This document shows, piece by piece, positions 21,610 through 64,000 of a stretch of 64,000 nucleotides of DNA (position 1 is its first letter; the number at the start of each line of letters is the position of its first letter). A program made the position numbers and the translations under genes. The notes under the pieces were generated by a model. It saw only the letters and a list, made by a program, of their open reading frames with translations, did no database searches and was not told the DNA's origin. This DNA comes from an uncultured Gammaproteobacteria bacterium (GTDB lineage: Bacteria; Patescibacteriota; Microgenomatia; Levybacterales; UBA12049), in the NCBI GenBank assembly GCA_964637955.1, contig CAZWXQ010000003.1:223154-287153 (forward strand). The letters run 5' to 3'.

Positions 21610-21618
21610 CCCGTTAAT

Positions 21619-22311: not shown

Positions 22312-22319
22312 CCATTCTC

Positions 22320-24247: not shown

Positions 24248-26492
<2,245 letters not shown>

Positions 26493-26496
26493 AATT

Positions 26497-30188: not shown

Positions 30189-30659
30189 ATGTCAGCATCT
30201 GAAAGACGATCAGCGGAAAGAGCTTGGAGGGATGGATTGCCCAGAGTGGAAGAAGTGGTAAGTCCAGCTCTTATAAGGTACTTAAGACAATCTGCTGTCG
30301 ATAGGTATGGCCACGCAGAAGAAAAAGCAGTTAAAGATTTTGCTCAAGCATTTCTAACAGATTTTGCAGGACATCCAAGAATTGAAGAGGAAGTTGCGCG
30401 ATTGGTTTTGCGTTCAGTAGTTCAAGGTCAGTGGGCAACAGTTGTCTCACTTAATCCTTATTCTGATTCGCGAGCTGATTATAATGCGCAGTTAATAGCT
30501 GAGGGTTATGGCTTATTAAGGCCTTTCAATTTTGGAGAAAGACAGGAAGATGTTGATCCTGTGAATGCACTTAGGCCGACAAGATTTTTATTGGAAGGTG
30601 TTGCGGCAAGATTAAATGGAGATATAGCAATAAAAGTAACTCCAGAAGGCCGACGCTAA
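30189..30659 (+). CDS. Hypothetical protein
   Basis: It is a 156 aa ORF, noticeably GC-richer than its surroundings. It sits between the atp operon and dnaE. Confidence 0.5.
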   Translation: MSASERRSAERAWRDGLPRVEEVVSPALIRYLRQSAVDRYGHAEEKAVKDFAQAFLTDFAGHPRIEEEVARLVLRSVVQGQWATVVSLNPYSDSRADYNAQLIAEGYGLLRPFNFGERQEDVDPVNALRPTRFLLEGVAARLNGDIAIKVTPEGRR

Positions 30660-51330: not shown

Positions 51331-52008
51331 CTATTTGCGAATAAGCTCTACTAAGATCAACCTAACGATAGCCCATCCATTAAAAAGGGGATGCATTTTG
51401 CGTTTACCGCCAATTCTTTTTGGTTCGCTTGCGGGAATCTCAGTTACTTTTAATTTTTCCTTCGCGCAGTGTATTGATAGCATGGGTTCTAGTCCTGCTC
51501 TCGGAATATTTATATCCATTTTTCTAACGACATCTTTTTTATAGGCGCGCATCATGACAAGAGTGTCTGTATACTTACCTCCAAAACATATATTAATTAT
51601 TTTTGTAAACATCCAGTTTCCAAATGCAGTAACTGGGTCATCGTCTTCACTTTTTGCGCCTTTCATGTATCTTGAGCCGATTACCATGTCATAATCTCCC
51701 TCCTTCATCTTTTTGACCAGAAGAGGAATTGCTTCAGGAAGAGAGTTTCCGTCGGGGCTAAATGATACGATTAGGTCACCTCGTGCAGCTTTAAGTCCTT
51801 CTCGAACAGCATTGGTTATACCTTTTTCTTTTTGCATGACGACTCTGTAGCCTTTGGACTTTGCATATTCTACGGTTCCATCTGTAGAGCCGCCATCTAA
51901 AAATAGGATTTCATCGACCCATTCTTTTTTAACATGAGGCATAACGACTTTCATGCCGTCAATTTCGTTTAACGTTGGAATAAGAAGAGTTACTTTATTT
52001 TTTTTCAT
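51331..52008 (-). CDS. GT2 polyprenol-phosphate sugar synthase (DPM1-like)
   Basis: VTLLIPTLNEIDGM...LFLDGGSTDGT is present. Length is 225 aa. Confidence 0.75.
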   Translation of the reverse strand: MKKNKVTLLIPTLNEIDGMKVVMPHVKKEWVDEILFLDGGSTDGTVEYAKSKGYRVVMQKEKGITNAVREGLKAARGDLIVSFSPDGNSLPEAIPLLVKKMKEGDYDMVIGSRYMKGAKSEDDDPVTAFGNWMFTKIINICFGGKYTDTLVMMRAYKKDVVRKMDINIPRAGLEPMLSIHCAKEKLKVTEIPASEPKRIGGKRKMHPLFNGWAIVRLILVELIRK

Positions 52009-52999
52009 TAAATACGTTGTATCTTTTATTTACGTCCTTTTTATTCGCCAAATACCATTCTATCGTCTCCTTGATTCCTTGTTCAAGTGTTACAAAGGGC
52101 GTGAATCCAAGAAGCTTCTTAGCCCGAGTTGTATCCATTAGTCTTTTTTTATCTCCCATGGGTTTGGTTTTATCCCACTTAATTTTAATAGGTCCGTTAG
52201 GCGCCAGGCTTGCTACTGTTTCTGCAATTTGCTTTATGGTTACCCCTGTTCCGCTTCCCAAATTAACTGGAACACTTATTCCATTTTCAAGAGCCAAAGA
52301 CATGCCACGGGCGACATCTTTGGCGTGAATGAGATCTCTTATTGGTGTGCCATCCCCCCATACTGTTAAAGGATTTTCTCCATTTACAGCTCTGTAAATA
52401 AGTGAAGGAATAACCATGGCATTCTCAGGATCAAAATTGTCATATGATCCGTACACGTTAGCCGGGCGAACTATTGAAATTTTATCCCAGCCATATTGAA
52501 TTTTGTAGCTTTCTGCTTGAAGTTCTCCCATGCGTTTTGCCCATCCTGCGAATTTATCATTTTCAGATGGAAAAGTTTTCCAAACATCATCCTCATAAAA
52601 AACTTCTGCTGGAGAATACACGCCAACTGAACTTGTATAAAGAAATCTTTTAACTTTTGCGCGACGGGAAGCCTCCATCATGTTGGTATTAAAAAGAATT
52701 GTTGGTACAAAAAAACTTGCAGGTTGTTCTTTTGTCATTTTCGGAGAGCCTTTTATGCCTGCGAGATGAAACACGAAGTCAATTCCTTCGCAAACCTGTC
52801 TGCAGTTATTTATATCTGTTAAATCTAATTTTGAAAACTTTGCTTTAGGATGAGCGCGAGATGAGTCATCAAGGGAAGCTATTGTAACTTTTGCACCCTT
52901 TTCAATCAGAAGATCGACGAGATATTTTCCAATCATGCCTGTCCCGCCTGTTACCAGTACTTTTTTATTTTTATAAAAATTATTTTTACTTTTTTCCAT
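51995..52999 (-). CDS. NAD-dependent nucleotide-sugar epimerase/dehydratase/reductase (SDR)
   Basis: KVLVTGGTGMIGKYL is the Rossmann motif. The start is assigned to the internal Met (MEKSKNN); the ORF-track start at 53137 adds a non-coding-looking leader. Confidence 0.7.
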   Translation of the reverse strand: MEKSKNNFYKNKKVLVTGGTGMIGKYLVDLLIEKGAKVTIASLDDSSRAHPKAKFSKLDLTDINNCRQVCEGIDFVFHLAGIKGSPKMTKEQPASFFVPTILFNTNMMEASRRAKVKRFLYTSSVGVYSPAEVFYEDDVWKTFPSENDKFAGWAKRMGELQAESYKIQYGWDKISIVRPANVYGSYDNFDPENAMVIPSLIYRAVNGENPLTVWGDGTPIRDLIHAKDVARGMSLALENGISVPVNLGSGTGVTIKQIAETVASLAPNGPIKIKWDKTKPMGDKKRLMDTTRAKKLLGFTPFVTLEQGIKETIEWYLANKKDVNKRYNVFNEKK

Positions 53000-53741
53000 T
53001 TGATTTCGTTTTTTTTGAAACTGTATTCGTAGGGATCGTGAAATATGCATATTTAAATGGAGACAAAAAAGCTGGAAGCTTAAGCCAAGGATATTCCAAA
53101 ACCACAAGATACCAGTAGAAAGGTCCAACAAGATCACTGAACTTTTTTGAGATTACCTCCTGTTTTTTAAATCCAGCTTTTTTTAAAAATCCATCCAAAG
53201 TGGACTGCGCAAGTACAAATGTCGGCATTGAGCCTGTGAGCTTAACTTTAATCCTTTCAAGTCTTTCCAAGTACTTAGGTAAAAAAATTTCGACAACTAT
53301 GATTTCTTTTTTACATACTCTTGCGAGCTCTTTGAAAAATTTCTCAAACTTCAAATATTGATCTTCATTTGATTCAAGTCCCAGGTGATGGAGTACGCCG
53401 TTTACTAAAACATAATCAAAGGAATTGTCTTTAAACGGTAAGTCCGCTCCGTCAGCTACTACTTGAATGTACTTATCTTTTCCATTTGATCTTTTTAGCA
53501 TCTCTTTATTTTTATCTACACCAACAAATTTAACTAGTGTTGCTGCGATCTCGTCTCCAAGGACATCGGACGGCTTAACTCCTCCGTTTCCAACATCAAG
53601 TACAGTAGATTTCTTTAGTCTTGGGTAATAGTTTTTAACTGCAACGTCGAAAATTGCTCTATTTACTCGAGAATTTACATCGTGTTCATAGTTTTTGCTG
53701 ATTTTGTCGAATTGATCTTTCTGCGATTTACTTAGACTCAT
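52986..53741 (-). CDS. Class I SAM-dependent methyltransferase
   Basis: Motif I is VLDVGNGGV. VGVDKN and FDYVLVNGVLHHL are present. Confidence 0.65.
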   Translation of the reverse strand: MSLSKSQKDQFDKISKNYEHDVNSRVNRAIFDVAVKNYYPRLKKSTVLDVGNGGVKPSDVLGDEIAATLVKFVGVDKNKEMLKRSNGKDKYIQVVADGADLPFKDNSFDYVLVNGVLHHLGLESNEDQYLKFEKFFKELARVCKKEIIVVEIFLPKYLERLERIKVKLTGSMPTFVLAQSTLDGFLKKAGFKKQEVISKKFSDLVGPFYWYLVVLEYPWLKLPAFLSPFKYAYFTIPTNTVSKKTKSNGKK

Positions 53742-54673
53742 ATATTTGCATAATCGTTTCTTTTAATTACCTGGTAGCCTTTAATTAATTCTGAAATACC
53801 TGATGACAAAGAAACCTTCGTTTTATATCCAGTCTTTTCTATTTTTTCATTTGAAACAATATAATTCCTTTGATCGGGATCCTTTCCAATAGGGGAATCA
53901 ACAAAGGTAAATTTTGGAATAAGTTTTTTAATTTCTTCGCAAAGTTCTCTTTTTGAGAGATTAGCTTCAGACAGGCCTACATTGTAGGCTTCATTTTTCA
54001 TTGTAGCAAAATTTTCCATAGTGTGGATAAACGCTCTAGCTACATCTCTAACGTGGATATAATTTCTCTTGAAGTCTGCTTCAAAAAGTACAACATAGCC
54101 ATCATTTAAGGCGCGGTAAGTAAAATCATTAACAAGAAGATCAAGTCTCATGCGAGGACTAATTCCAAAAACTGTTGCAAGTCGAAGCGTTATTACGTTT
54201 TTTTCTCGAAGTAGCGCTTTTTCTGCATCGACTTTTAGTTTTCCGTACAGTGAGATTGGATTAAGTGGCGATTTTTCGGTACAAAAAGCACCAGCCTTTC
54301 CGACCCCATATCCGCTATTAGTATTTGGAAAGATTATTTTTTGATTTGGTTTACGGAGTTTAAGAATTAGCTTAACCGCATCAAGATTAATTGATTTTGC
54401 TTCAAGTGGAAACTTGTCACATAATGGAGCGCCGACAAGACACGCGAGAGGAATAATAAAATCTTGGTTTAAGATAGCAGATTTCATCAATTTTTCATCT
54501 CGACAATCACCTCGAATTATCTTTAGATTTTTGTCATAACAAACATTGAGAAGGCTGTTTTGTTTGTAGTAAAAATTATCAACAACTGTTACTTCTATGC
54601 CTTTTTCAAGAAGCATAGGAACGAGAATCGAGCCAATATATCCGGCGCCTCCGGTCACTAAAACTTTTACCAT
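53738..54673 (-). CDS. NAD-dependent nucleotide-sugar epimerase/dehydratase (SDR)
   Basis: VLVTGGAGYIGS and YGKLKVDAEK (the YxxxK motif) are present. Confidence 0.75.
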   Translation of the reverse strand: MVKVLVTGGAGYIGSILVPMLLEKGIEVTVVDNFYYKQNSLLNVCYDKNLKIIRGDCRDEKLMKSAILNQDFIIPLACLVGAPLCDKFPLEAKSINLDAVKLILKLRKPNQKIIFPNTNSGYGVGKAGAFCTEKSPLNPISLYGKLKVDAEKALLREKNVITLRLATVFGISPRMRLDLLVNDFTYRALNDGYVVLFEADFKRNYIHVRDVARAFIHTMENFATMKNEAYNVGLSEANLSKRELCEEIKKLIPKFTFVDSPIGKDPDQRNYIVSNEKIEKTGYKTKVSLSSGISELIKGYQVIKRNDYANI

Positions 54674-54776: not shown

Positions 54777-55721
54777 TCATAAAATATTTTTTTTGTACCA
54801 CGAAATTGTTTTTTCTATGCCTTCGTCCAAGGTGATTTTTGGCTTCCAGCCATAAGTTTTTTTCGCATGACTCGCATCAACAGCCAAATCAAATTTAATT
54901 GTTGGTTTTGATGAATCAAACTCCAAGTTAATTTTTTTACCGGAAATTTTAATAATTTTAGTTATTACTTCTTTTACTGAGAAGGCTTGCTCTATGCCTA
55001 AGTTAACCAAATCAAATTTTTCTTTTTGTTTTTTCAAAACTAATTCAACGAAATCAACTAAATCTGAAACATAAAGCAGGTCTCTCTTTTCAGATCCATC
55101 TCCCCAAACTGAAATCTTTTCATCTTTAGCGGTTAAAACCTTCGTAACCGTTGCTCCAAAAAAATGAGATCTTTCTAAATCGTACTTGTCGTAAGGCCCA
55201 TAAATATTTGAATGTCTTATCGCAGTATATTTGGTGTCTCCAATTCTTGAGTAAAACTCACACATTTTTTCCAAATAAACTTTTGTCCAACCAACTCCAA
55301 AATACTTATTAATAATTTGAGAATTAAAGTCGGTTTCTTTTACAGGTTTTTTTTGACTTGGATACATTGTGGTACAGCTAAAGAAGATTACATGTTTAAC
55401 TTTTTCTTCAAAACATGCTCGAAAGATAAGGCTATTCATTACGGCATTATCAGTAACATGGATGTACGGCCTTGTAACAACATCCTTTGAGCCAGTAGTT
55501 ACTGCAGCTGCTTGAATTACGATATCTTTTCCTTTTATTATTTTATCTACTTCTTCTGTTTTTGTTAGGTCAACTTTTATTAGTTTAATGCTTTTAATGT
55601 TGGGTTTTTTGGTAAGGTATGTGCCATAAATTTGTAAATCTTTTCTTTTGGAAAGTCTCTCCGCAATATTTTGTCCAATAAAACCGCTTACTCCGCAGAT
55701 TAATACGCTTGTTTTTTTCAT
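54777..55721 (-). CDS. NAD-dependent nucleotide-sugar epimerase/reductase (SDR)
   Basis: The Rossmann motif is VLICGVSGFIGQN. Length is 314 aa. Confidence 0.7.
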   Translation of the reverse strand: MKKTSVLICGVSGFIGQNIAERLSKRKDLQIYGTYLTKKPNIKSIKLIKVDLTKTEEVDKIIKGKDIVIQAAAVTTGSKDVVTRPYIHVTDNAVMNSLIFRACFEEKVKHVIFFSCTTMYPSQKKPVKETDFNSQIINKYFGVGWTKVYLEKMCEFYSRIGDTKYTAIRHSNIYGPYDKYDLERSHFFGATVTKVLTAKDEKISVWGDGSEKRDLLYVSDLVDFVELVLKKQKEKFDLVNLGIEQAFSVKEVITKIIKISGKKINLEFDSSKPTIKFDLAVDASHAKKTYGWKPKITLDEGIEKTISWYKKNIL

Positions 55722-55723: not shown

Positions 55724-56905
55724 TTATTTAACGTTATTCAATATATCACACAACTCATAAATTTTCTTCTCCTCAAGTGTGGGGTAGTTGCCTATATAAA
55801 AACCATAAAAATGAATGTGCTCTACGTTGGGAAATCTTTTATATTCTTTATCGTCAACAAGTTTTTTTAAATAAGGTTGTCTTAATTGATTTCCTCCACC
55901 AGAAGTTCCTCTACGAAATTCAACTCCATGAGCAAGAAGTGCTTTCATAACCTTTTCTGCAAAAAGCATATTAGGTTTTTTTATAACTAAAACAAATGCG
56001 TAATTACTGCTGCCTTCAGTTTCAAAATCTGTTTGATATATTTCCGAATTTAAATTTTCTAAAAAAACCTTTAAATTTTTTGTGCGAATTTTAATGTTTT
56101 TATCCAATCTTTTTAATTGTGATAATCCCATAACCGCAGCTATTTCAGTAGAGCGCATGTTATATGCAGGATAGGCGAATATGAAATCTGGATTTAGGTC
56201 CGGATATTTTTTTTGATAATATTTTTTTGTTTTGATAGAACTGGCCTCTCGTACCATGCCATGAGCGCGAAGCATTCGAAGCATTTCATAAATTTGGGAG
56301 TTATTTGTTGAGATCATTCCACCCTCTATCGTACTCATGTGATGAGCGTAATAAAAAGAAAAATTTGACATAAGACCAAATGTGCCAAGCTTTTTCTTTT
56401 TAAACGTTGCTCCATGTGATTCGCAAACGTCCTCAATAAGTGGAATTTTTCTAAGTCGCAACTCGTCTAATAATTTTTGAGTCAGTCCGTTATGTCCTAA
56501 TATATGAGTTAAAAAAACAGCTTTTGTTTTAGAATTAATTTTTTTCAAAACCTCTTTTTCTTCCATTGCGAGCGTTCTGGGATTGATATCCACAAATACC
56601 GGCTTAAAACCACATTGCATAACAGACGCTATATCAGAAACCCAGGTTAGGGGAGGGACAATTATTTCTCCCAAGCCGTATGTTTCTCGCAGAGCAAGAA
56701 TACTTAAAAGGTTTGCTGATGAGCCAGAGTTAACAAAAACACTATATTTACTTCCAAGCCATTTTGACCATTCTTGTTCAAATTTTTGTACATTAGTTGA
56801 CTGAGTAAGTATTGGATCGTTTTTGGATGAGAGGAATTCAATAACATTATCTAAATCTTCCCTTAAAATATTGTTTTGCATGAGTGGCCACTGTAGATTT
56901 TTCAT
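55724..56905 (-). CDS. DegT/DnrJ/EryC1-family PLP/PMP-dependent sugar 3-dehydratase (ColD/E1-like)
   Basis: SGSSANLL is present. The active-site block FSFYYAHHMSTIEGG has His at the position that holds the Schiff-base Lys in aminotransferases, as in ColD/E1 3-dehydratases. There is no C-terminal Cys cluster. Confidence 0.65.
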   Translation of the reverse strand: MKNLQWPLMQNNILREDLDNVIEFLSSKNDPILTQSTNVQKFEQEWSKWLGSKYSVFVNSGSSANLLSILALRETYGLGEIIVPPLTWVSDIASVMQCGFKPVFVDINPRTLAMEEKEVLKKINSKTKAVFLTHILGHNGLTQKLLDELRLRKIPLIEDVCESHGATFKKKKLGTFGLMSNFSFYYAHHMSTIEGGMISTNNSQIYEMLRMLRAHGMVREASSIKTKKYYQKKYPDLNPDFIFAYPAYNMRSTEIAAVMGLSQLKRLDKNIKIRTKNLKVFLENLNSEIYQTDFETEGSSNYAFVLVIKKPNMLFAEKVMKALLAHGVEFRRGTSGGGNQLRQPYLKKLVDDKEYKRFPNVEHIHFYGFYIGNYPTLEEKKIYELCDILNNVK

Positions 56906-57951
56906 TAAAACGGTCCTTTAAATTCAAATTCTGTAGACTTCAATGGTTCTTTGGGAGTCCATGTACTTCTTTTACCCGTAATCATTTTATACGCAGCCTG
57001 AGCGATCTGCAAGCCGTTAGGATAGAAAAGTTTCTCAAGTGATGGAGTAGGGGGACATGTAACCTGAGCAAAGCCCATACGATGAACTTTTATTTTTTTC
57101 TTATCTTGCATTTTTTCGACAACAGATGCGGTAATTTCACTACTAGCTCCACTTGTTATCCAATCATTGTCCACAACAATTAAGTGTCCTGTTTTAGAGA
57201 CAGATTTTGTAATGGTATCGATATCAAGAGGAGAAAGCCATATAGGATCTATAACTTCCGCACTTATTCCGATAGATTCTAAATACTCTCTTGCATGCAT
57301 GCACTCAAGCTGCATTTGTGAGATGCCAACTAAGGTTACGTCTTTGCCTTTTGCTGTTATTCTTGCTTTACCAGGCTCTACGGTGTATTGTTTTTCTGGT
57401 ACAAATCCTTTTTGGAAATGAAGAATTCTATGTTCAACAAAAATTACAGGATTATTGTCTCTAATTGCTGCAGTTAAAGATCCTTTTGCATCGTATGGGG
57501 TAGTTGGCGCTACTACTTTGAGGCCCGGAACATGCATAAAAAATGAGTAAAGTCCTTGTGAGTGCTGTGCTCCCTGGCCCCAGCTTTTGCCAATCATGCC
57601 TCTTACTACAAGAGGAATATTTACTTGTCCGCCATACATATAATGGGTTTTAGCAGCAATATTCACAAGTTGATTCATAGCAAGCATCATAAAATCCATT
57701 CTGATGTGTACGTGGATTGGTTTTAGTCCTGCAAGCGCCATGCCTACCGCTACTCCTGTCATAGAGTCTTCAGAAAGAGGAGTACCAAAGACACGACTCG
57801 AACCAAATTTATCAACTAGTCCTTTTGTAGTGCCTTGAATTGCTTTTGGATCATCTACATCCAGTCCGAATACGAGAACAGATTTATCCCGACTCATTTC
57901 TTGGTCGGTAGCTTCTCTTATTGCTTCAATGTAGGAAAGTTTGCGTATCAT
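56905..57951 (-). CDS. TPP-dependent dehydrogenase E1 beta-like subunit (transketolase-like)
   Basis: MIRKLSYIEAIREA...VLVFGLDV is a typical E1-beta N-terminus. The start is assigned to the internal Met at 57951. Confidence 0.7.
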   Translation of the reverse strand: MIRKLSYIEAIREATDQEMSRDKSVLVFGLDVDDPKAIQGTTKGLVDKFGSSRVFGTPLSEDSMTGVAVGMALAGLKPIHVHIRMDFMMLAMNQLVNIAAKTHYMYGGQVNIPLVVRGMIGKSWGQGAQHSQGLYSFFMHVPGLKVVAPTTPYDAKGSLTAAIRDNNPVIFVEHRILHFQKGFVPEKQYTVEPGKARITAKGKDVTLVGISQMQLECMHAREYLESIGISAEVIDPIWLSPLDIDTITKSVSKTGHLIVVDNDWITSGASSEITASVVEKMQDKKKIKVHRMGFAQVTCPPTPSLEKLFYPNGLQIAQAAYKMITGKRSTWTPKEPLKSTEFEFKGPF

Positions 57952-57952
57952 G

Positions 57953-58918
57953 TTAATCTTTAAAAACATCGCTGTAAAGCTCGGAGTCATTTGGGAATGG
58001 ACTTTTTTCTGCAAAATCGAAAGCATCTTGAATCTCTTTTTCTACAGTGTTTTCGATTTTATTGCGACTTTGTGTATCGATTAGCTCTCCAACTTTTTTA
58101 ACCTGGTCGTTTTTTACCCAAATCGCTCTTTCTTTTTCGCTTCTATATCCCAAATGAAAATCGTCATTTGGCCCTACATGTTCTTTCCACCTGTAAGTCA
58201 TGCATTCAAAGAAAAATGGACCTGAAATTCCTTGTCTTAAAGCTTGAATTTTAGATCCTACGCTGTCATATATTTTGAAAACGTCATTATTCTCAATTTT
58301 TTCAGAAGGTACTCCGAAAGATTTAACTTTTTCTAAAATGCTACTCCCTTGTCTTTGCTTTAAATGAGTATGTATTGCATAAAAGTTATTCTCGCAAATA
58401 AAGATAATTGGAAGTTTTTTAATGACAGCAAAATTGATACTTTCCCAAAAAACACCTTCATCAGTTGCACCGTCTCCAAAAAAACAGACTACAATAGACT
58501 TACTGCCTTTAGATTTTAGGGTATATGCATATCCAACTGCATGAGGAATGCTTGTTCCGACAACAGCAGATGTTCCCATAAAACCAGCTTCGATATCAAT
58601 TAGATGCATAGACCCTCCTTTTCCTTTAGCGCATCCCGTTGCTTTTCCATAGAGTTCTGCAATCATTTTACTTAAATCTCCACCTTTAGCTAGGTAAAGC
58701 GCATGGCCTCTATAAGTACCGAAAACGATATCGGTTGCTTTAAGAGCTTCACAAATACCAACTGAAACAGCCTCTTGGCCAATTGATAAGTGTACAGGAG
58801 ACTTAATTTTATCTGTTGGATAAACTTTCGCAATTTCTTCTTCAACGCGTCTAATTTTATATAAAGATTTATAGAATTTATTTGGTGATATTTTTTTCAT
58901 TTTTTTTAAACCATTCAA
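57953..58918 (-). CDS. TPP-dependent dehydrogenase E1 alpha-like subunit
   Basis: The TPP-binding motif GDGATDEG and YRGHALYLAKG are present. Length is 321 aa. Confidence 0.75.
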   Translation of the reverse strand: MNGLKKMKKISPNKFYKSLYKIRRVEEEIAKVYPTDKIKSPVHLSIGQEAVSVGICEALKATDIVFGTYRGHALYLAKGGDLSKMIAELYGKATGCAKGKGGSMHLIDIEAGFMGTSAVVGTSIPHAVGYAYTLKSKGSKSIVVCFFGDGATDEGVFWESINFAVIKKLPIIFICENNFYAIHTHLKQRQGSSILEKVKSFGVPSEKIENNDVFKIYDSVGSKIQALRQGISGPFFFECMTYRWKEHVGPNDDFHLGYRSEKERAIWVKNDQVKKVGELIDTQSRNKIENTVEKEIQDAFDFAEKSPFPNDSELYSDVFKD

Positions 58919-59822
58919 TAGTGAGATTTAATCCAACATCTAATGATGTTTTTGGCTCCCACCCTAAGGCTTTTATTTTTGAAGAATCTAAAAGTTTCCT
59001 TGGCATGCCATCTGGATGAGAAGTTTCAAATTTAATTTTTCCTTTAAATCCTGTTTGCTTACTGATTTCCTCAATCAATTCTTTTATAGATATATCATTT
59101 CCTGATCCAACATTAATAAACTCTGGATGATTATAATTTTGCATTAAAAAATATAGTGCATCTGCAAGGTCGTCAACATAGAGAAATTCTCTTTTTACTT
59201 TTCCAGTTCCCCAAATTTCAATGGAAGATAAATTATTTCGCTTGGCATCTAAGAATTTTCTTATAAGTGCCGGTAAAACATGAGAAACTTCTGGGTCAAA
59301 TTTATCGTTTGGGCCATAGATCGTTGCTGGCATCGCACAGATAAATTCTTTTTTAAATTGTTTAGAAATATACTCACAAAGTTTTAAGCCAGCGATTTTT
59401 GCAACAGCATATCCTTCATTGGAGGGTTCAAGTTTTCCAGTCAAAAGAAATTCTTCTTTCATTGGTTGAGGACTATCTTTTGGATAAATACATGAACTTA
59501 ATAAAAATAATAATTTTTTGACGTCTTTTTTATGCGATGTCCAGATTAAATTATTTTGAATCATTATGTTTTCATGCAAGAACTGCGCTTGGTGTGTCAT
59601 ATTGGCTTTAATTCCACCTACTTTGGCAGCAGCGATGATTACATATTCAGGTTTTTCTTCATCAAAAAATTTTTCAACTAAATCTTGTCTAGTTAAATCT
59701 AGCTCTGAATGAGTTTTAGTTATAATATTTTTATAGCCTTCTTTTTGGAACTTGGACAAAAGAGAAGAACCAACAAGTCCAGTGTGACCTGCGATATAAA
59801 TTCTAGCTTTTTTAGGTATCAT
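58878..59822 (-). CDS. GDP-L-fucose synthase family 3,5-epimerase/4-reductase (Fcl/ColC-like)
   Basis: Long blocks match E. coli Fcl: IYIAGHTGLVGSS, AAAKVGGI, KLLFLLSSCIYPK and EGYAVAKIAGLKLCE. The start is assigned to the internal Met at 59822. Confidence 0.8.
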   Translation of the reverse strand: MIPKKARIYIAGHTGLVGSSLLSKFQKEGYKNIITKTHSELDLTRQDLVEKFFDEEKPEYVIIAAAKVGGIKANMTHQAQFLHENIMIQNNLIWTSHKKDVKKLLFLLSSCIYPKDSPQPMKEEFLLTGKLEPSNEGYAVAKIAGLKLCEYISKQFKKEFICAMPATIYGPNDKFDPEVSHVLPALIRKFLDAKRNNLSSIEIWGTGKVKREFLYVDDLADALYFLMQNYNHPEFINVGSGNDISIKELIEEISKQTGFKGKIKFETSHPDGMPRKLLDSSKIKALGWEPKTSLDVGLNLTIEWFKKNEKNITK

Positions 59823-60819
59823 ATTTATATTCCTCCAGGATATCATAAAAAATAATTTGTGATCCTTCATGTTCAAATTTGAAGGGTACATGAACGAGCT
59901 TTTTTAATTTTTCTTTAACATTTTTTTGATTTTTTGGAGGAACAAAAAGGAGCAGGAATCCGCCGCCACCAGCGCCAATAAGTTTTCCACCTATTGCACC
60001 CGCGCTTTTTGCCTTTTTATATATTTCATCAATCTCGGAATTGGAGACAATTGGGCTTAGGGATCTTTTTAATTTCCAAAATTCGTCGAGCAACTCCCCT
60101 AATTCATTTAAATTTTTCTTACTGTTTAAAATTGAAATTGCTTCATCTACCGAAGCTTGCATAAGACTAAGCTGTTTTTGTTGGTTGTTAATTTTTTTTA
60201 CATAACTTTTTGCTATATTTGAAGCTGTTCTCGGAATTCCCGTATAAAATAACATGAGATGTTTTTCTAGTTCATTAATGCGATTTGCAGAAAGAGTCAT
60301 TGGTTTAACAATAATATTTCCGTCTCTTTGAAAAGTGATATGGTTAAATCCTCCATATGCGGCAAGAGTTTGATCTTGATATCCCACAGTTTCTTTTAAG
60401 ATTTCTTGTTCAAGTCGAATGCCTTCACGCGCCAATTGCTGTTTACTTAACATTTGTCCCTGCAAGGCATGGAGAGCGTTAAGGAGTCCCACCGTGAGAG
60501 CAGAACTTGTACCAAGTCCTGATCTTGCGGGTAAATCTCCATCGTGATGAATTGCTAATCCATCCTGAATTTTCAAGAAACGAATAGCTTCTCTTACTGC
60601 AGGATGCTTAATTTCATCAATTGTATTACATAATTCATTTTTTGAATACACAATACGATATTTGTGCCAAAAGAATGGAGGTAAATATCTTACATTTAAA
60701 TAAGAATATTTGTTAATTGTGGTAGCAAGGACTGCACCGCCGTGTTCTTTAACCCAATCGGGATAATCCGTACCTCCACCAAAAAAAGATATGCGGAAAG
60801 GGGTTCTGCTTATGACCAT
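59812..60819 (-). CDS. GHMP-family sugar kinase, HddA-like (D-glycero-D-manno-heptose 7-phosphate kinase)
   Basis: PFRISFFGGGTDYP and GLGTSSA GHMP motifs are present. It is adjacent to gmhA. Confidence 0.7.
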   Translation of the reverse strand: MVISRTPFRISFFGGGTDYPDWVKEHGGAVLATTINKYSYLNVRYLPPFFWHKYRIVYSKNELCNTIDEIKHPAVREAIRFLKIQDGLAIHHDGDLPARSGLGTSSALTVGLLNALHALQGQMLSKQQLAREGIRLEQEILKETVGYQDQTLAAYGGFNHITFQRDGNIIVKPMTLSANRINELEKHLMLFYTGIPRTASNIAKSYVKKINNQQKQLSLMQASVDEAISILNSKKNLNELGELLDEFWKLKRSLSPIVSNSEIDEIYKKAKSAGAIGGKLIGAGGGGFLLLFVPPKNQKNVKEKLKKLVHVPFKFEHEGSQIIFYDILEEYKYDT

Positions 60820-61430
60820 ATTTCTTTATGCTTCATTTTTACAAAAAGATAATGCTCAACAATTTCACAGAGTATGTGCTCAACAATCAAAAGAGATTCT
60901 TGAATATATTGGGTATTTTTGCTTGGAATAGAGATTGACAAATCTGCCACTTTTAAAAGTTCTCCGGAGCTGCCAGTTAAAGCAAGAGTGTGCAATTTTT
61001 TATGATTAGCTGCCTTAATAGCTCTGATAATATTCTTAGAGTTTCCGCTCGTTGAGATACCTATTAATAGATCGTTTTTTTGACCAAGTCCCTGCACTTG
61101 ACGTTCAAAAACTCCCTCAAAGCCAAAGTCATTGGAAAAAGCAGTTATCACTGATGAATCAGCAGTTAGGGCAAAGGCAGGTAGCGTTGGCCTACTTAGA
61201 TTTTTATCGAGCATATTAACAAATTCCGCCGCTATATGCTGACAATCGGCAGCGCTTCCTCCATTCCCACAAAGTAAAATTTTGCCACCTGATAAAAATG
61301 TGTCAACAATTAGCTGAGATGCAGCTAGTATGGAATCGTTACATGTTTTTAATGTGAGCTGATTGACTCGTATGCTTTCTAGTAAGTGTTTCTCTGCTTT
61401 TTTGCGATAGAAGTTATTGCTGTTAGCCAT
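60810..61430 (-). CDS. gmhA: SIS-domain phosphoheptose isomerase (sedoheptulose-7-phosphate isomerase)
   Basis: GNGGSAADCQHIAAEF matches the GmhA GNGGS..D..HFAEE block. Length is 206 aa. Confidence 0.85.
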   Translation of the reverse strand: MANSNNFYRKKAEKHLLESIRVNQLTLKTCNDSILAASQLIVDTFLSGGKILLCGNGGSAADCQHIAAEFVNMLDKNLSRPTLPAFALTADSSVITAFSNDFGFEGVFERQVQGLGQKNDLLIGISTSGNSKNIIRAIKAANHKKLHTLALTGSSGELLKVADLSISIPSKNTQYIQESLLIVEHILCEIVEHYLFVKMKHKEIWS

Positions 61431-61469: not shown

Positions 61470-62153
61470 TTATGGTTTGGAAGACATGATTTTATCGTAA
61501 ACTAATTGGGGAGTTATGTCTTTCCAAGTTGTAAATATTGCGTCCGGTTGCAGATCAAAAACTAATCCTTCGTGAACTGGAAAAACAACTACTCTTGCTC
61601 CAGCTTTTTCTGCTGCGATTTTGCCTGGTGGAGAATCTTCATGAACGAGCATCTTTTCAGGAGATGCTTGTATTCCGAAAATTTCAGAAGCCTTAATGTA
61701 AACTTCTGGGTCAGGCTTTAATTTTTTAACACTAGACTCAGTCAATATATGTCCTGGGTTGAAAAATCTTAATAGATCAGATCTTCTAAGTATCTCAAAT
61801 GCATTCCCATCAGGTGTAATTGAGGCAAGCACTAATTCTCCTCCTAGGCTTCTAACTGTTTCAAGATATTCTGAAACTCCTTCCCTAGGTGAAATAGGAT
61901 AAGAATAAAGTAGCTCTTCATATAGCTTTTCTTTTTCTGCACGAATTATTATTGGATCTATTTTATCGGTAGTCATTTTTGAGATTGCTTCAGATATTGC
62001 TTTATCTCCAGCTCCAACAAAACTATGGAATTCATGCTGTCCGAATCTTACACCGTAATTTGAGGCAACTTGCTCAAGAGCTTCTTGGTGTAATCCTTCT
62101 AAATCAACAGCTGTTCCTTCGAGATCTACTGCATTGTATTGAAAAATTTCCAT
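61470..62153 (-). CDS. HAD-superfamily (subfamily IA) phosphatase
   Basis: Motif I is VDLEGT, which has Glu at +2 instead of Asp. The motif IV region is HEDSPPG. Confidence 0.6.
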   Translation of the reverse strand: MEIFQYNAVDLEGTAVDLEGLHQEALEQVASNYGVRFGQHEFHSFVGAGDKAISEAISKMTTDKIDPIIIRAEKEKLYEELLYSYPISPREGVSEYLETVRSLGGELVLASITPDGNAFEILRRSDLLRFFNPGHILTESSVKKLKPDPEVYIKASEIFGIQASPEKMLVHEDSPPGKIAAEKAGARVVVFPVHEGLVFDLQPDAIFTTWKDITPQLVYDKIMSSKP

Positions 62154-62286: not shown

Positions 62287-63006
62287 ATGCAAGCGATTAT
62301 CATGGCAGGAGGGAAGGGTACAAGGCTCCAAAAAGTTACGAATGATGAAATCCCCAAAGCGTTGGTTCAAATAAACAATAAGCCTTTACTTGACTATGTC
62401 ATAGAGCATGCAATCAAAAATGATTTTGACAAAATAATTATATGTACTGGTCACTTAGGCCACAAAATTCAAGAGTATATTAGCAATAAAAATTATGATG
62501 CATCAATTTATATTTCTCAAGAAAGTGAGCCAATGGGCACAGCCGGTTCTCTTCATTTGATTTCTGATTTATTGGAAGATGAATTTTTTATTATATATGC
62601 TGATGTTTATTCGACAATAAATTTAAAAAAAATGTTTGATTTTCACAAAAAAACAAAAGCAAATGTAACAATTGCAGTTCATAAATCTAATCACCCGCAA
62701 GATAGTACAGTTGTAAAAATTGATAAAAACGGTAAGTACTTAGCTATGATTCAAAAACCGGGTGATAAGTGGAAAGAGTACGGCAATTTGACGCAAACAT
62801 CTCTTTATATAGTAAAAAAAGACATCTTAAATTATGTTAAAAAAAACATAAAGCAAGATTTTGAATCAGACATTTTTCCATTATTGCTTAACAAAGGTGA
62901 GGATATTTATGGCTACATGACTTCTGAATACACAAAAGATATGGGAACTCCGGAAAGGTATAGCGATCTTATAAATAAATTACAGGTAGAAAACCTTGGC
63001 AAATGA
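62287..63006 (+). CDS. Sugar-1-phosphate nucleotidyltransferase, HddC/ManC N-terminal-domain-like (probable heptose-1-phosphate guanylyltransferase)
   Basis: AIIMAGGKGTRL and EPMGTAGSL are present. Length is 239 aa. Confidence 0.8.
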   Translation: MQAIIMAGGKGTRLQKVTNDEIPKALVQINNKPLLDYVIEHAIKNDFDKIIICTGHLGHKIQEYISNKNYDASIYISQESEPMGTAGSLHLISDLLEDEFFIIYADVYSTINLKKMFDFHKKTKANVTIAVHKSNHPQDSTVVKIDKNGKYLAMIQKPGDKWKEYGNLTQTSLYIVKKDILNYVKKNIKQDFESDIFPLLLNKGEDIYGYMTSEYTKDMGTPERYSDLINKLQVENLGK

Positions 63007-64000
63007 AGAGAATTGATTATACCGTTTGTTTTTTGATTGGTTTTTCTGCTTTAATCTCTCGAATTCCGTTTGTTGAAAAATTTCAGTCATTTTGGGATGG
63101 GCCTCAGCTAACCATTGGAATATCACATTTTTCAGTTGTCGAGCATACGCCAGCAGCTCCTGGATATCCATATTTTATTGGTTTGGGAAAATTTTTCCAT
63201 TTATTTTTTTCTGATCTTCATACATCAATTGTTGCAGTGAGCGTATTTGCAGCTGTCGTGGGTGCTATTACTCTTTATATTGTTGGACTAAAAATGTTCA
63301 ATCGTTTTGTTGGTTTCGCTGCCTCTGTAATTTTTTTAACTGGTTCAACTTTTTATTTCTTTTCAATAGCTCCTCATCCATACGATTTACTAATTACAGC
63401 GACTACGCTACTGGCTTATAGCGTCTATCGAATTTTTGTTCAAAAAAAACAAGAAGGAATATTTTTGGGACTTACAATAGGGATTTGTATTGGAATACGT
63501 CCTCAAGAAATTATAAATATTTTCATTTTATTTCTTCTTGGATTCTTGGTTCTTTCTACTAAAGAAAAAATCAAATCAATATTAGCTTCTGCTGTCATAT
63601 GTTTTTCTTGGTTTATTCCGATTGTTAATAGTGTAGGTTTTAGAAATTATTTTACAGAAGCTTCAGCAATTGCTAAAACAGGCATAGCTAGTCAATCGAT
63701 TTCAAATCATATCGAGTCGATGTTTAAAGGATTCCTTCTGAGTTTTGGAATTTCTGGAGGGTTCCTTGCTTATTATTCACTCAAGTTAAATCGAATAAAG
63801 AAAATCTCCTCAAAAGAAAAAGACCTTCTGATTTTTTACGGCGCTTGGATGCTGCCTGGATTTATTTACAATTTATTTTTTAGATCAGATGCTGTGGGTT
63901 ATCAGTTTAGTTATTTAATACCGTTACTTTTTCTAATCTCAAATGCAATCTGGTATTTAACAAGGAAAAGTAAATTTTTATATTTCTTTGTGCTTGCTTG
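63003..64000 (+). CDS. Polytopic membrane protein, GT-C-like glycosyltransferase. The 3' end lies beyond the window.
   Basis: The ATG at 63003 overlaps the upstream stop (ATGA). The frame is open to the window end. It is multi-TM with loop motif FWDGPQ...HTPAAPGYPYF. Confidence 0.45.
   Translation, partial: MKRIDYTVCFLIGFSALISRIPFVEKFQSFWDGPQLTIGISHFSVVEHTPAAPGYPYFIGLGKFFHLFFSDLHTSIVAVSVFAAVVGAITLYIVGLKMFNRFVGFAASVIFLTGSTFYFFSIAPHPYDLLITATTLLAYSVYRIFVQKKQEGIFLGLTIGICIGIRPQEIINIFILFLLGFLVLSTKEKIKSILASAVICFSWFIPIVNSVGFRNYFTEASAIAKTGIASQSISNHIESMFKGFLLSFGISGGFLAYYSLKLNRIKKISSKEKDLLIFYGAWMLPGFIYNLFFRSDAVGYQFSYLIPLLFLISNAIWYLTRKSKFLYFFVLA

What the first reader, a model, noticed from the sequence alone, without database searches (positions are those of the whole stretch)
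55724..56905. DegT-family enzyme with His in place of the PLP lysine: a 3-dehydratase rather than an aminotransferase
In the active-site block FSFYYAHHMSTIEGG, the position that carries the Schiff-base Lys in sugar aminotransferases is His. This is the hallmark of ColD (GDP-4-keto-6-deoxymannose 3-dehydratase) and of E1/RfbH. The protein has a single Cys near its C-terminus, so it lacks the [2Fe-2S] motif of E1. This argues for the ColD type, which matches the GDP-linked (heptose) context.
Basis: partly seen in the sequence, partly recalled or inferred. Interest (0 to 1): 0.6.

Follow-up and report, generated by a model that had tools for sequence, protein, structure and literature searches.

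The report
ColD-like sugar 3-dehydratase, heptose-branching operon

Summary
Window 55724..56905 (-) encodes a 393-aa DegT-family protein. His188 (motif FSFYYAHHMSTIEGG) aligns with catalytic His188 of ColD and His220 of E1, where aminotransferases carry the Schiff-base Lys. One detail is wrong: the protein has three Cys (98, 161, 386), not one. None rebuilds E1's [2Fe-2S] motif.

ColD is the best solved relative by sequence (E 4e-59) and predicted fold (TM 0.83), so the ColD-type reading is supported. The protein is not ColD proper: it is 35% identical, whereas characterised GDP-heptose C3-dehydratases are 62-67% identical to ColD. It belongs to a conserved "YYAHH" clade (63-85% identity) with at least 469 genome loci across many phyla.

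In 54 of 59 informative loci a two-subunit thiamine enzyme lies within 7 kb, and in 50 it lies directly upstream.

The window operon has GDP-heptose synthesis genes and a 58%-identical Cj1427 homologue (GDP-heptose C4-dehydrogenase). It has no 4,6-dehydratase.

The likely substrate is therefore GDP-D-glycero-4-keto-heptose, with the 6-OH kept. Its 3-deoxy-4-keto product would feed thiamine-dependent C4 branching, as in yersiniose. I found no publication describing this cassette.

The parts
55724..56905 (-). Target gene: His-type DegT-family, PMP/PLP-dependent NDP-4-keto-sugar C3-dehydratase (ColD-like, 'YYAHH' clade), 393 aa
   Evidence: ORF. Pfam DegT 1.1e-66. Best PDB hit ColD, 3.9e-59. AlphaFold model pLDDT 80, pTM 0.84. 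Top Foldseek hits are all ColD.
56339..56344 (-). Codons for His188 (CAT, catalytic position replacing the Schiff-base Lys) and His189 (CAC)
   Evidence: for coordinates. for alignment to ColD H188 and E1 H220. Invariant in 120/120 homologues.
56429..56431 (-). Codon for Asp159, which aligns with the Asp of ColD's EDNCES block (residue 159 by my reading of the PDB numbering; its role as the cofactor pyridine-N ligand is general aminotransferase knowledge). Part of the conserved block EDVCES.
   Evidence: Aligned with the ColD EDNCES block. Invariant in alignment A1 together with E162, S163, S183, N249, R251, R219 and R331.
56905..58026 (-). E1-beta-like subunit of a two-subunit ThDP enzyme (alpha-KADH2 type). 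Its stop codon overlaps the target's ATG (TAATG), which suggests translational coupling.
   Evidence: Pfam Transket_pyr plus Transketolase_C. NCBIfam PDH E1-beta 300 bits, just below the cutoff of 321. Overlap seen. Motif TPLSED present.
57953..58918 (-). E1-alpha-like ThDP-binding subunit with an intact GDG-X26-NN motif
   Evidence: Pfam E1_dh 1.7e-61. NCBIfam PDH_E1_alph_y 289 bits, below the cutoff of 394. Motif at residues 148-178.
58878..59891 (-). SDR1: GDP-L-fucose-synthase (Fcl/ColC)-type epimerase/reductase
   Evidence: NCBIfam GDPFucSynFcl 429 bits (cutoff 500). PDB 7ll6 at 1e-98.
59812..60819 (-). GHMP kinase, HddA-like (heptose-7-phosphate 1-kinase candidate)
   Evidence: Pfam GHMP_kinases_N/C. 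Best NCBIfam hit is HddA, 161 bits, far below the cutoff of 600.
60810..61430 (-). SIS-domain sedoheptulose-7-phosphate isomerase, GmhA-like
   Evidence: Pfam SIS_2. NCBIfam phosphoheptose isomerase 202 bits (cutoff 276) and gmhA 183 bits (cutoff 209).
61470..62153 (-). HAD-family phosphatase, the candidate functional replacement for GmhB
   Evidence: Pfam HAD_2. Beta-PGM-family hydrolase. A phosphatase of a different family occupies this role in L002 (Inositol_P) and L084 (GmhB-like).
62287..63006 (+). Sugar-1-phosphate nucleotidyltransferase, guanylyltransferase/HddC-like, divergently transcribed
   Evidence: Pfam NTP_transferase 8e-35. Best NCBIfam hits are mannose-1-P guanylyltransferase (120 bits) and HddC (98 bits), both below cutoff.
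54777..55721 (-). SDR2: extended SDR, Fcl/GalE-like, specificity unknown. Starts 2 nt after the target's stop codon.
   Evidence: 68-71% identical orthologues lie directly downstream of the target's orthologue in L002, L004, L005, L007 and L008.
53738..54673 (-). [quoted passage not shown] Predicted supplier of the 4-keto substrate.
   Evidence: PDB 6vo6, E 9e-116, 58.4% identity over 308 gapless residues. Cj1427 function from PMC10680097. That 6vo6 is Cj1427 is from my own knowledge.
52986..53741 (-). Class I SAM-dependent methyltransferase
   Evidence: Pfam Methyltransf_11 6e-15.
51995..53137 (-). SDR4: extended SDR, Fcl/RmlB-like but without the acidic dehydratase motif. The true start is probably downstream of the listed GTG.
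   Evidence: Sequence YTSSVGVYS at the catalytic Ser/Thr block.
51331..52008 (-). GT2 resembling polyprenyl-phosphate sugar synthases (AglJ, ArnC, PpgS)
   Evidence: Pfam Glycos_transf_2. NCBIfam AglJ 127 bits and dolichyl-P hexose transferase 82 bits, both below cutoff.
63006..64000 (+). Open reading frame for a multi-pass membrane protein that runs off the window end. A role as the GT-C-type glycosyltransferase that uses the lipid-linked sugar is conjecture.
   Evidence: Open for 340 aa in frame, with a hydrophobic sequence. No family search was run.

Best explanation
The gene encodes a PMP/PLP-dependent nucleotide-sugar C3-dehydratase of the ColD mechanistic type. Proposed mechanism, by analogy with ColD: glutamate converts PLP to PMP. 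PMP forms a ketimine with C4 of a GDP-4-keto sugar. His188, which occupies the place of the aminotransferase lysine, abstracts the C4' proton so that the C3 hydroxyl is expelled. Hydrolysis then releases PLP, ammonia and a GDP-3-deoxy-4-keto sugar. No iron-sulfur cluster or reductase partner is needed. [quoted passage not shown] The Cj1427 homologue SDR3 oxidises it at C4 to GDP-D-glycero-4-keto-D-lyxo-heptose. The target removes the 3-OH to give GDP-D-glycero-3-deoxy-4-keto-heptose. Proposed downstream steps, inferred from conserved synteny and from the yersiniose and alpha-KADH2 precedents: the translationally coupled E1-alpha/beta ThDP enzyme adds an acetyl unit from pyruvate to the C4 ketone. 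SDRs and a methyltransferase tailor the product. A polyprenyl-phosphate GT2 passes it towards the cell surface. Shown here: the fold, the catalytic His, retained cofactor residues, absence of the Fe-S motif, clade membership and synteny. Inferred: substrate identity, order of steps, the branching reaction and the final sugar.
For: Enzyme class: DegT fold. His188 aligns with ColD H188 and E1 H220. H188/H189 are invariant in 120/120 homologues. D159, E162, S183, N249, R251, R219 and R331 are invariant and shared with ColD. ColD is the best sequence match in the PDB (4e-59). ColD is also the best structural match, followed by GDP-perosamine synthases. The E1 cluster cysteines are absent. No reductase partner is encoded in the operon.

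Substrate: SDR3 is 58% identical to PDB 6vo6 (Cj1427). None of the four SDRs is Gmd- or RmlB-like. Cj1427 combined with a ColD-family C3-dehydratase does make GDP-D-glycero-3-deoxy-4-keto-heptose in vitro (PMC10680097).

ThDP link: the E1-beta stop codon overlaps the target's ATG. Of 59 genome loci with at least 2.5 kb upstream, 50 carry a two-subunit ThDP enzyme immediately upstream and 4 more carry one within 7 kb. The ThDP enzyme is of three interchangeable families: E1-alpha/beta, split transketolase and a mini two-subunit type. The E1-alpha has an intact ThDP motif. YerE-like, alpha-KADH2 and transketolase enzymes are the three ThDP classes known or proposed to add acyl branches to deoxy-keto sugars (PMC12247030, PMC9306805, PMC4802897).
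Against: No activity data exist. The protein is only 35% identical to ColD, and NCBIfam has no model that it passes (best is RfbH, 195 bits against a cutoff of 423). Specificity therefore cannot be transferred by orthology. The HddA-, HddC- and GmhA-like genes all score below their equivalog cutoffs. Close relatives (L084) carry a Gmd/Rmd-like SDR next to the kinase, so a 6-deoxy substrate is possible in those loci. A 4,6-dehydratase encoded elsewhere in this genome cannot be excluded. The core Fcl-like SDR1 could reduce the 3-deoxy-4-keto sugar directly, as ColC does, leaving the ThDP enzyme with another role. No natural 4-C-branched 3-deoxy-heptose is known to me, and none turned up in the literature searches. 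The model's active-site loop 186-191 has pLDDT below 50.
Confidence: 0.6

Rival explanations
1. The chemistry is the same (ColD-type C3 deoxygenation) but the substrate or the order of steps differs. One option is that the enzyme acts on a GDP-6-deoxy-4-keto-heptose or -hexose made by a 4,6-dehydratase encoded elsewhere, and the Fcl-like SDR1 then finishes a colitose-like 3-deoxy or 3,6-dideoxy sugar. Another option is that it acts after the ThDP enzyme, on the carbonyl of the acyl branch.
For: Close relatives have a Gmd/Rmd-like SDR in the cassette (best PDB hits 2pk3 and 7us5, a GDP-heptose 4,6-dehydratase). SDR1 is Fcl-like, and ColC is an Fcl homologue by my own knowledge. C. jejuni makes 3,6-dideoxy-heptoses by the route 4,6-dehydratase, then C3-dehydratase, then epimerase, then reductase (PMC10440746).
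Against: The window operon has no Gmd- or RmlB-type enzyme. It does have a strong Cj1427 homologue. The ThDP enzyme is the most constant neighbour of the target across loci, which a plain colitose-like route does not explain.
Confidence: 0.2
2. An E1/SpnQ-type 3-dehydratase: the PMP-sugar-ene intermediate is reduced through an iron-sulfur cluster by an external reductase rather than hydrolysed.
For: The local motif YAHH matches E1's PAHH (Ala before the His pair) rather than ColD's YSHH. JGI pipelines name homologues 'CDP-6-deoxy-D-xylo-4-hexulose-3-dehydrase / E1'. The best NCBIfam hit is RfbH. Cys161 aligns with E1 C193.
Against: E1's C251, C253 and C261 have no counterpart in this protein or in 120 homologues, and ColD also has the C193-equivalent Cys. 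Cys98 and Cys386 vary in more distant clade members. The RfbH score is 195 against a cutoff of 423. E1 is a much weaker PDB match than ColD. No ferredoxin-reductase-like gene is in the operon.
Confidence: 0.05
3. An aminotransferase-like or non-catalytic protein: the His variant still yields a 4-amino sugar (as SpnQ can without a reductase), or serves only as a scaffold for the ThDP enzyme.
For: SpnQ shows transamination when PLP and glutamate are in excess (PMC8987622). There is tight translational coupling with E1-beta.
Against: ColD and E1 showed no such activity under similar conditions (PMC8987622). Cofactor-binding and catalytic residues are under strict conservation across phyla, which argues for catalysis. 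No N-acyl- or N-methyltransferase typical of amino-sugar routes is in the operon.
Confidence: 0.05

Closest known systems
ColD / WbdK, GDP-4-keto-6-deoxy-D-mannose 3-dehydratase of E. coli O55:H7 (PDB 2gms, 2gmu, 2r0t, 3b8x, 3gr9)
   Same: Same fold. Catalytic His at the same residue number (188), followed by a second His. Shared D159, E162, S183, YN(V/M)R, R219 and R331. No Fe-S motif. Best sequence and structural match. A GDP-linked substrate is predicted.
   Different: Only 35% identity. Ala instead of Ser at position 187. Different clade (AHH versus SHH). The operon has a C4-dehydrogenase rather than Gmd, and a ThDP enzyme that colitose operons lack. The predicted substrate is a 7-carbon sugar that keeps its 6-OH.
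C3-dehydratases of Campylobacter jejuni HS:5/HS:11 (GDP-6-deoxy-4-keto-D-lyxo-heptose 3-dehydratase; UniProt A0A0U3ALB0)
   Same: They act on GDP-heptose-derived 4-keto sugars. In vitro they also accept the Cj1427 product to give GDP-D-glycero-3-deoxy-4-keto-heptose (PMC10440746, PMC10680097). That is the reaction proposed here.
   Different: Those enzymes are 62-67% identical to ColD (PMC10440746), so they are true ColD-clade members, whereas the target is 35% identical. Their natural route runs through a 4,6-dehydratase and ends with an epimerase and reductase, with no ThDP enzyme.
E1 (AscC/RfbH/DdhC), CDP-6-deoxy-L-threo-D-glycero-4-hexulose 3-dehydrase, with E3, upstream of YerE/YerF in yersiniose A biosynthesis
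   Same: His replaces Lys, within an AHH motif. At pathway level the logic is the same: 3-deoxygenation of a 4-keto sugar creates the acceptor for a ThDP-dependent acyl branch at C4 (PMC9306805).
   Different: E1 has the C-X57-C-X-C-X7-C [2Fe-2S] motif and needs E3, and both are absent here. E1 uses CDP-hexose rather than GDP-heptose. YerE is a single-chain decarboxylase-type ThDP enzyme, whereas here the ThDP enzyme is a two-subunit E1-alpha/beta type. Identity to E1 is 31%.
alpha-KADH2-type two-subunit ThDP sugar-branching enzymes of antibiotic pathways (aldgamycin, kibdelomycin KbDH-alpha/beta, paulomycin Plm8/Plm9, avilamycin)
   Same: E1-alpha/beta-like pairs without E2 or E3 partners that transfer a C2 unit from pyruvate to a keto-sugar (PMC12247030, PMC4802897, PMC4425429). 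The partner gene of the target is of this type.
   Different: According to PMC12247030 these are described for secondary metabolites. Here the pair sits in cell-surface polysaccharide loci with Wzt/Wzm transporters, glycosyltransferases and polyprenyl-P GT2 genes, in many non-actinobacterial phyla, and with a GDP-heptose-derived acceptor. I did not compare sequences with those enzymes.

Membership tests
His-type PMP-dependent NDP-4-keto-sugar 3-dehydratases (ColD / E1 / SpnQ superfamily within DegT) | Fold-type I aminotransferase (DegT_DnrJ_EryC1) architecture over the full length | tested here: met
   Pfam PF01041, 1.1e-66, residues 17-389. Predicted structure has TM 0.81-0.84 to ColD chains.
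His-type PMP-dependent NDP-4-keto-sugar 3-dehydratases (ColD / E1 / SpnQ superfamily within DegT) | Histidine in place of the Schiff-base lysine | tested here: met
   His188 aligns with ColD H188 (column verified by the H188N and H188K mutant entries) and with E1 H220. Invariant in 120/120 homologues.
His-type PMP-dependent NDP-4-keto-sugar 3-dehydratases (ColD / E1 / SpnQ superfamily within DegT) | Cofactor-binding residues retained (Asp to pyridine N, Ser/Asn/Arg to phosphate and O3') | tested here: met
   D159, E162, S163, S183, N249 and R251 are invariant in alignment A1 and identical in ColD. Their roles are taken from general knowledge of the family.
His-type PMP-dependent NDP-4-keto-sugar 3-dehydratases (ColD / E1 / SpnQ superfamily within DegT) | Catalyses loss of the C3 hydroxyl from an NDP-4-keto sugar | not testable with these tools
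   Requires an enzyme assay.
ColD proper (GDP-4-keto-6-deoxy-D-mannose 3-dehydratase, colitose pathway) | Orthology-level similarity to characterised ColD (characterised members, including the C. jejuni heptose enzymes, are 62-67% identical to one another) | tested here: not met
   35.2% identity over 344 aligned residues. Full-length bit scores drop from at least 362 within the target's clade to 277 or less outside it. ColD-clade representatives carry SHH, and the target's clade carries AHH.
ColD proper (GDP-4-keto-6-deoxy-D-mannose 3-dehydratase, colitose pathway) | No iron-sulfur motif, and no need for a reductase partner | tested here: met
   E1's cluster cysteines are absent. No reductase gene is in the operon.
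ColD proper (GDP-4-keto-6-deoxy-D-mannose 3-dehydratase, colitose pathway) | Genomic context of GDP-mannose 4,6-dehydratase (Gmd) plus ColC | tested here: not met
   No Gmd-type SDR in the operon. An Fcl/ColC-like SDR1 is present. The 4-keto group is instead predicted to come from a Cj1427 homologue.
ColD proper (GDP-4-keto-6-deoxy-D-mannose 3-dehydratase, colitose pathway) | GDP-sugar binding (Arg219 and Arg331 contact the diphosphate in ColD; this role is from my memory of the Holden structures, which I could not re-read) | tested here: inconclusive
   Both Arg residues are conserved and invariant in the clade. After ColD, the next-best structural matches are GDP-perosamine synthases. Nucleotide specificity is not proven.
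E1 / RfbH (CDP-6-deoxy-L-threo-D-glycero-4-hexulose 3-dehydrase) | [2Fe-2S] motif C193-X57-C251-X-C253-X7-C261 | tested here: not met
   Only the C193 equivalent (Cys161) is present, and ColD shares it. The other three positions are a gap, Val and Thr in the target, and none is Cys in any of the 120 homologues.
E1 / RfbH (CDP-6-deoxy-L-threo-D-glycero-4-hexulose 3-dehydrase) | Passes the NCBIfam RfbH equivalog model | tested here: not met
   194.7 bits against a cutoff of 423.
E1 / RfbH (CDP-6-deoxy-L-threo-D-glycero-4-hexulose 3-dehydrase) | E3 (flavin/[2Fe-2S] reductase) partner and CDP-glucose genes nearby | tested here: not met
   None among the 13 operon genes.
DegT-type sugar aminotransferases | Schiff-base lysine in the S-x-x-x-K/H block | tested here: not met
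   His188 is at that position. The nearest Lys residues are at 172 and 225.

The most novel reading that the evidence does not exclude
The 'YYAHH' clade marks a widespread, undescribed pathway found from CPR bacteria and cyanobacteria to Verrucomicrobiota, Chloroflexota and deltaproteobacterial MAGs. In this reading a Cj1427-type C4-dehydrogenase and this C3-dehydratase convert GDP-heptose into a 3-deoxy-4-ulose. Interchangeable two-subunit ThDP enzymes (E1-alpha/beta, split transketolase, mini type) then acylate it at C4, and often a B12-radical-SAM enzyme elaborates it further. The result would be a family of branched higher-carbon 3-deoxy-heptoses in cell-surface glycans that chemistry has not yet reported. 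It would also be the first alpha-KADH2- and transketolase-type sugar branching found outside secondary metabolism.
Probability: 0.4. Interest if true: 0.7.

Novelty: new variant of a known kind. Interest (0 to 1): 0.5.

Why it matters
The Lys-to-His hallmark is textbook, so taken alone the enzyme is an ordinary new member of the sugar 3-dehydratases. The context is what matters. The protein represents a large clade that is conserved at 63-85% identity across phyla. Automated annotation labels it either 'DegT aminotransferase' or 'CDP-...E1', and both labels are wrong or misleading. The clade is almost always paired with a thiamine enzyme and GDP-heptose genes. This gives a directly testable route to natural GDP-3-deoxy-heptoses, which so far have been made only by mixing C. 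jejuni enzymes in vitro (PMC10680097). It also points to a possible new class of C4-branched heptoses on bacterial surfaces, and it extends two-subunit ThDP sugar carboligases from antibiotic pathways to envelope glycans. Such enzymes are also of interest as biocatalysts for tertiary alcohols (PMC12247030).

Tried and rejected
- I considered a non-canonical Fe-S site built from the three conserved Cys (98, 161, 386). I rejected it because Cys98 and Cys386 vary among 46-57%-identical clade representatives, and ColD shares Cys161.
- I looked for a 4,6-dehydratase in the operon. All four SDRs were searched against NCBIfam and the PDB. None is Gmd- or RmlB-like, and none has the acidic TDE/SxSE block. 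The only such candidate in the window (7053-8087) is RmlB-like, below cutoff, 47 kb away, and sits next to an RmlD-like gene.
- I tried to identify the source organism. An exact-sequence look-up found only an unnamed 299,907-bp NCBI contig and a Logan contig from SRR14271332. The best genome-collection relative is an uncultured gammaproteobacterial MAG at 78%. The window contains no rRNA. The organism remains unknown.
- I tried to read the ColD and Cj1427 structure papers (PMC2533848, PMC2242600, PMC7509852, PMC7500870). None is held. The residue roles for R219 and R331, and the identity of PDB 6vo6 as Cj1427, therefore rest on my own knowledge.
- Literature searches combining heptose, thiamine or E1, DegT or PLP, radical SAM and branching returned nothing. 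A Kuenenia S-layer glycan preprint that matched the search terms was irrelevant: 'cold' matched only as the ordinary word.
- tblastn alone under-reported the ThDP partners. Pfam scans of L014 and L037 showed that other ThDP families fill the same slot.
Full report
**1. The observation**

Window 55724..56905 (-) is a clean ATG-to-stop ORF of 393 aa. It matches Pfam DegT_DnrJ_EryC1 end to end at 1.1e-66. FSFYYAHHMSTIEGG occupies residues 182-196, and His188 and His189 are encoded at 56339-56344.

A phmmer search against all PDB sequences puts the four deposited ColD sequences first (3.9e-59 to 1.9e-57). Three of those entries are active-site mutants: 3b8x (H188N), 2r0t (H188K) and 3gr9 (S187N/H188K). 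The catalytic column is therefore unambiguous, and the query's first His sits on ColD His188. A second search with the C-terminal 241 residues brought up the E1 alignment (3bcx), in which the same His sits on E1 His220.

The His pair is invariant in the 120 best homologues. A His at the catalytic position is found in virtually all of the 150 best 50%-identity cluster representatives. The feature is real and under selection.

There are three Cys (98, 161, 386), not one.

**2. ColD type or E1 type?**

E1's unusual [2Fe-2S] motif uses C193, C251, C253 and C261. The motif is from Agnihotri et al. 2004, as cited in PMC8987622, and the residue numbers were counted on the 3bcx alignment. The target has only the C193 equivalent (Cys161), which ColD also has. 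The other three positions are a gap, Val and Thr, and they are never Cys in the 120 homologues. Cys98 and Cys386 are conserved among close relatives but vary in clade members at 46-57% identity, so they do not form a hidden cluster site.

The E1 match is far weaker than the ColD match (5.6e-31 against 3.9e-59). The NCBIfam RfbH model is missed by a wide margin (195 bits against a cutoff of 423). No flavin/ferredoxin-type reductase is among the operon genes.

An AlphaFold2 model (pLDDT 80, pTM 0.84) finds ColD chains as its top 12 Foldseek hits (TM 0.81-0.84). GDP-perosamine synthases come next. Residues that are invariant in the clade and identical in ColD include D159, E162, S183, the YN(M/V)R block, R219 and R331.

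The ColD-type, hydrolytic, glutamate-recycled mechanism (summarised in PMC8987622 and PMC10440746) is therefore the best-supported reading.

**3. It is not ColD itself**

Identity to ColD is 35% and to E1 31%. The GDP-heptose C3-dehydratases characterised from C. jejuni are 62-67% identical to ColD (PMC10440746).

The word-indexed search returned 8000 homologues below 1e-20. The best 120 are 68-85% identical (apart from the exact match to the window's own sequence) and come from very diverse sources. Automated names are either 'DegT aminotransferase' or 'CDP-...-3-dehydrase / E1'. The exhaustive search of 1.84 billion cluster representatives found 844 with E of 1e-30 or better. Full-length scores step down from at least 362 bits (at least 46% identity, motif YYAHH or YYGHH) to 277 bits or less. 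ColD-like representatives carry SHH.

The target thus belongs to a discrete subfamily of the His-type 3-dehydratases.

**4. Context in the window**

The gene lies in a tightly packed minus-strand operon, in this order:
- HAD phosphatase
- GmhA-like SIS isomerase
- HddA-like GHMP kinase
- SDR1
- E1-alpha-like ThDP subunit
- E1-beta-like subunit
- target
- SDR2
- SDR3
- SAM methyltransferase
- SDR4
- GT2

An HddC/guanylyltransferase-like nucleotidyltransferase is transcribed divergently. Beyond it lies a membrane-protein ORF that runs off the window. The E1-beta stop codon overlaps the target's ATG (TAATG), with an AAGGA upstream.

SDR1 is an Fcl-type epimerase/reductase (429 bits; PDB 7ll6 at 1e-98).

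SDR3 matches PDB 6vo6 at 9e-116, with 58.4% identity over 308 gapless residues. [quoted passage not shown] Its function is described in PMC10680097.

None of the four SDRs resembles Gmd or RmlB or carries the acidic dehydratase block. The 4-keto group, however, most likely arises by C4 oxidation with the 6-OH retained, not by 4,6-dehydration.

Raushel's group showed that Cj1427 plus a ColD-family C3-dehydratase produces GDP-D-glycero-3-deoxy-4-keto-D-threo-heptose in vitro, and described such 3-deoxy-heptoses as novel (PMC10680097). Here the two activities are encoded together naturally.

The GT2 resembles polyprenyl-phosphate sugar synthases. This hints at an ArnC/ArnT-like delivery route.

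**5. Context elsewhere**

A scan of one genome per species found at least 469 loci encoding relatives. The 80 kept are 62-78% identical. They come from Cyanobacteria, Verrucomicrobiota, Chloroflexota, delta- and betaproteobacterial MAGs, Planctomycetota, CPR (Levyibacteriota), a Paenibacillus MAG and one Woesearchaeota MAG.

I annotated their ORFs with the window's proteins, plus ThDP and radical-SAM queries taken from L014 and L037. The consensus order is:
- Cj1427-like SDR
- nucleotidyltransferase
- SIS isomerase (not always present)
- GHMP kinase
- Fcl-like SDR
- two-subunit ThDP enzyme
- DegT(His)
- B12-binding radical SAM enzyme

The counts are as follows:
- Of 59 loci with at least 2.5 kb upstream, 50 have a two-subunit ThDP enzyme directly upstream on the same strand. 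Of these, 38 are E1-alpha/beta, 5 are split transketolase and 7 are a mini two-subunit type. Four more loci have one within 7 kb.
- 40 of 44 loci with at least 7 kb upstream have the kinase, and 29 of 44 have the Cj1427-like SDR.
- 43 of 65 loci with enough downstream sequence have the B12-radical-SAM gene next.

The window and its nearest relatives lack the radical-SAM gene and carry SDR2 and SDR4 instead. Loci with precomputed annotation place the cassette among glycosyltransferases and Wzm/Wzt-type exporters.

In some close relatives the SDR next to the kinase is Gmd/Rmd-like rather than Fcl-like. The phosphatase belongs to a different family in different loci. The cassette is therefore modular.

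**6. Mechanistic proposal**

The most constant partner of this dehydratase is a ThDP enzyme, and the ThDP family is swapped while the dehydratase stays. The simplest explanation is that the dehydratase makes the acceptor for a ThDP carboligation.

That is the logic of yersiniose A biosynthesis. There E1/E3 make CDP-3,6-dideoxy-4-keto-glucose, YerE adds an acetyl unit from pyruvate at C4, and YerF reduces it (PMC9306805).

A 2025 review lists three ThDP classes that branch keto-sugars (PMC12247030):
- YerE-like decarboxylases, in LPS sugars.
- Two-subunit alpha-KADH2 enzymes, which use pyruvate to add a C2 branch in aldgamycin, kibdelomycin, paulomycin and related antibiotics.
- Transketolases, which are proposed to transfer a hydroxyacetyl unit in miharamycin and amipurimycin.

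Paulomycin genetics agree (PMC4802897, PMC4425429). The window's E1-alpha has an intact GDG-X26-NN motif, the E1-beta has the TPLSE block, and no E2 or E3 is present.

I therefore propose this route: GDP-heptose, then the 4-keto sugar (SDR3), then the 3-deoxy-4-keto sugar (target), then the 4-C-acetyl sugar (E1-alpha/beta), then reduction, epimerisation and methylation (SDR1, SDR2, SDR4, methyltransferase), then transfer to polyprenyl-phosphate (GT2).

Only the first enzyme assignments rest on strong homology. Everything after the dehydratase is inference from synteny and precedent.

**7. Novelty and literature**

Full-text searches combining heptose with thiamine or E1, DegT or PLP, radical SAM or branching found nothing. 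The review states that alpha-KADH2 and transketolase branching are known from secondary metabolites, and it mentions about 120 uncharacterised alpha-KADH2 clusters found in silico (PMC12247030). I could not check whether this cassette is among them.

The enzyme class is known. The clade, its probable 6-hydroxy-heptose substrate and its coupling to two-subunit ThDP enzymes in envelope-glycan loci appear undescribed.

**8. Verdict**

The gene is a new variant of a known kind.

Confidence that this is a His-type, Fe-S-independent C3-dehydratase is about 0.85. Confidence in the full proposal, including the substrate and the ThDP coupling, is about 0.6 or lower.

Interest is moderate (0.5). The hallmark itself is ordinary. 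The conserved, unannotated pathway it flags is worth an experiment.

Noticed in passing
window 220-15103: A second polysaccharide locus with markedly lower GC (27-31% against 33-39% elsewhere). It holds an RmlD-like reductase, two large GT2+PMT_2 fusion proteins (852 and 734 aa), a Wzx-type flippase, a methyltransferase, a GT1, an RmlB-like SDR below cutoff, another PMT_2 protein and a Wzy_C protein.
   Followed up: partly
window 16682-23786: Four sizeable ORFs (412, 401, 348 and 488 aa) with no Pfam hit at 1e-5. tRNA-Thr lies just upstream at 16557-16629.
   Followed up: no
window 51331-52008 (-) and 63006-64000 (+): The GT2 at the operon's end resembles polyprenyl-phosphate sugar synthases (AglJ, ArnC, PpgS). 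A multi-pass membrane ORF runs off the window end. Together they suggest an ArnC/ArnT-like two-step decoration route for the operon's sugar.
   Followed up: partly
L009-L083 (e.g. L012 10163-, L037 10188-11747): A B12-binding radical SAM enzyme follows the dehydratase gene in 43 of 65 related loci, but it is absent from the window and its closest relatives, which carry SDR2 and SDR4 instead. L014 additionally has a second radical SAM enzyme and a TylF-type methyltransferase between the ThDP genes and the dehydratase.
   Followed up: partly
L014 4321-6137; L037 7848-8987; L085 8232-10013: The ThDP partner is not always E1-alpha/beta. A split transketolase (Transketolase_N, then Transket_pyr plus Transketolase_C) or a miniature two-subunit enzyme (199 and 178 aa) occupies the same slot directly upstream of the dehydratase.
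   Followed up: partly
L084 7048-8025 versus window 58878-59891: The SDR between the GHMP kinase and E1-alpha is not orthologous among close relatives. It is Fcl-like in the window and Gmd/Rmd-like in L084 (PDB 2pk3 and 7us5, a GDP-heptose 4,6-dehydratase, about 1e-56). Some relatives may therefore make 6-deoxy versions of the sugar.
   Followed up: partly
window 61470-62153; L002 11181-11966; L084 13847-14392: The phosphatase of the cassette is filled by three unrelated families: HAD/beta-PGM type, inositol-monophosphatase type and GmhB/PNK3P type. This is non-orthologous replacement of one pathway step.
   Followed up: no
window 51995-53137 (-) and 58878-59891 (-): The mechanically listed starts of SDR4 (GTG, overlapping the methyltransferase by about 150 nt) and SDR1 (overlapping the kinase by 80 nt) are probably too far upstream. 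Homology begins near residue 56 of SDR4 and near residue 28 of SDR1.
   Followed up: no
window 46881-48647 (-), 30656-33883 (-), 24248-28023 (-): Housekeeping genes flank the sugar operon: a PolX-family polymerase with a PHP domain (TTG start), a compact 1075-aa DnaE, F-type ATP synthase alpha/beta subunits and GatB. The source organism could not be named; the nearest genome hit for the target is an uncultured gammaproteobacterial MAG at 78%.
   Followed up: partly
L027, L033, L039, L052, L078: These loci carry a second DegT-family paralogue within a few kb of the His-type dehydratase. Whether they are Lys-type aminotransferases was not checked.
   Followed up: no
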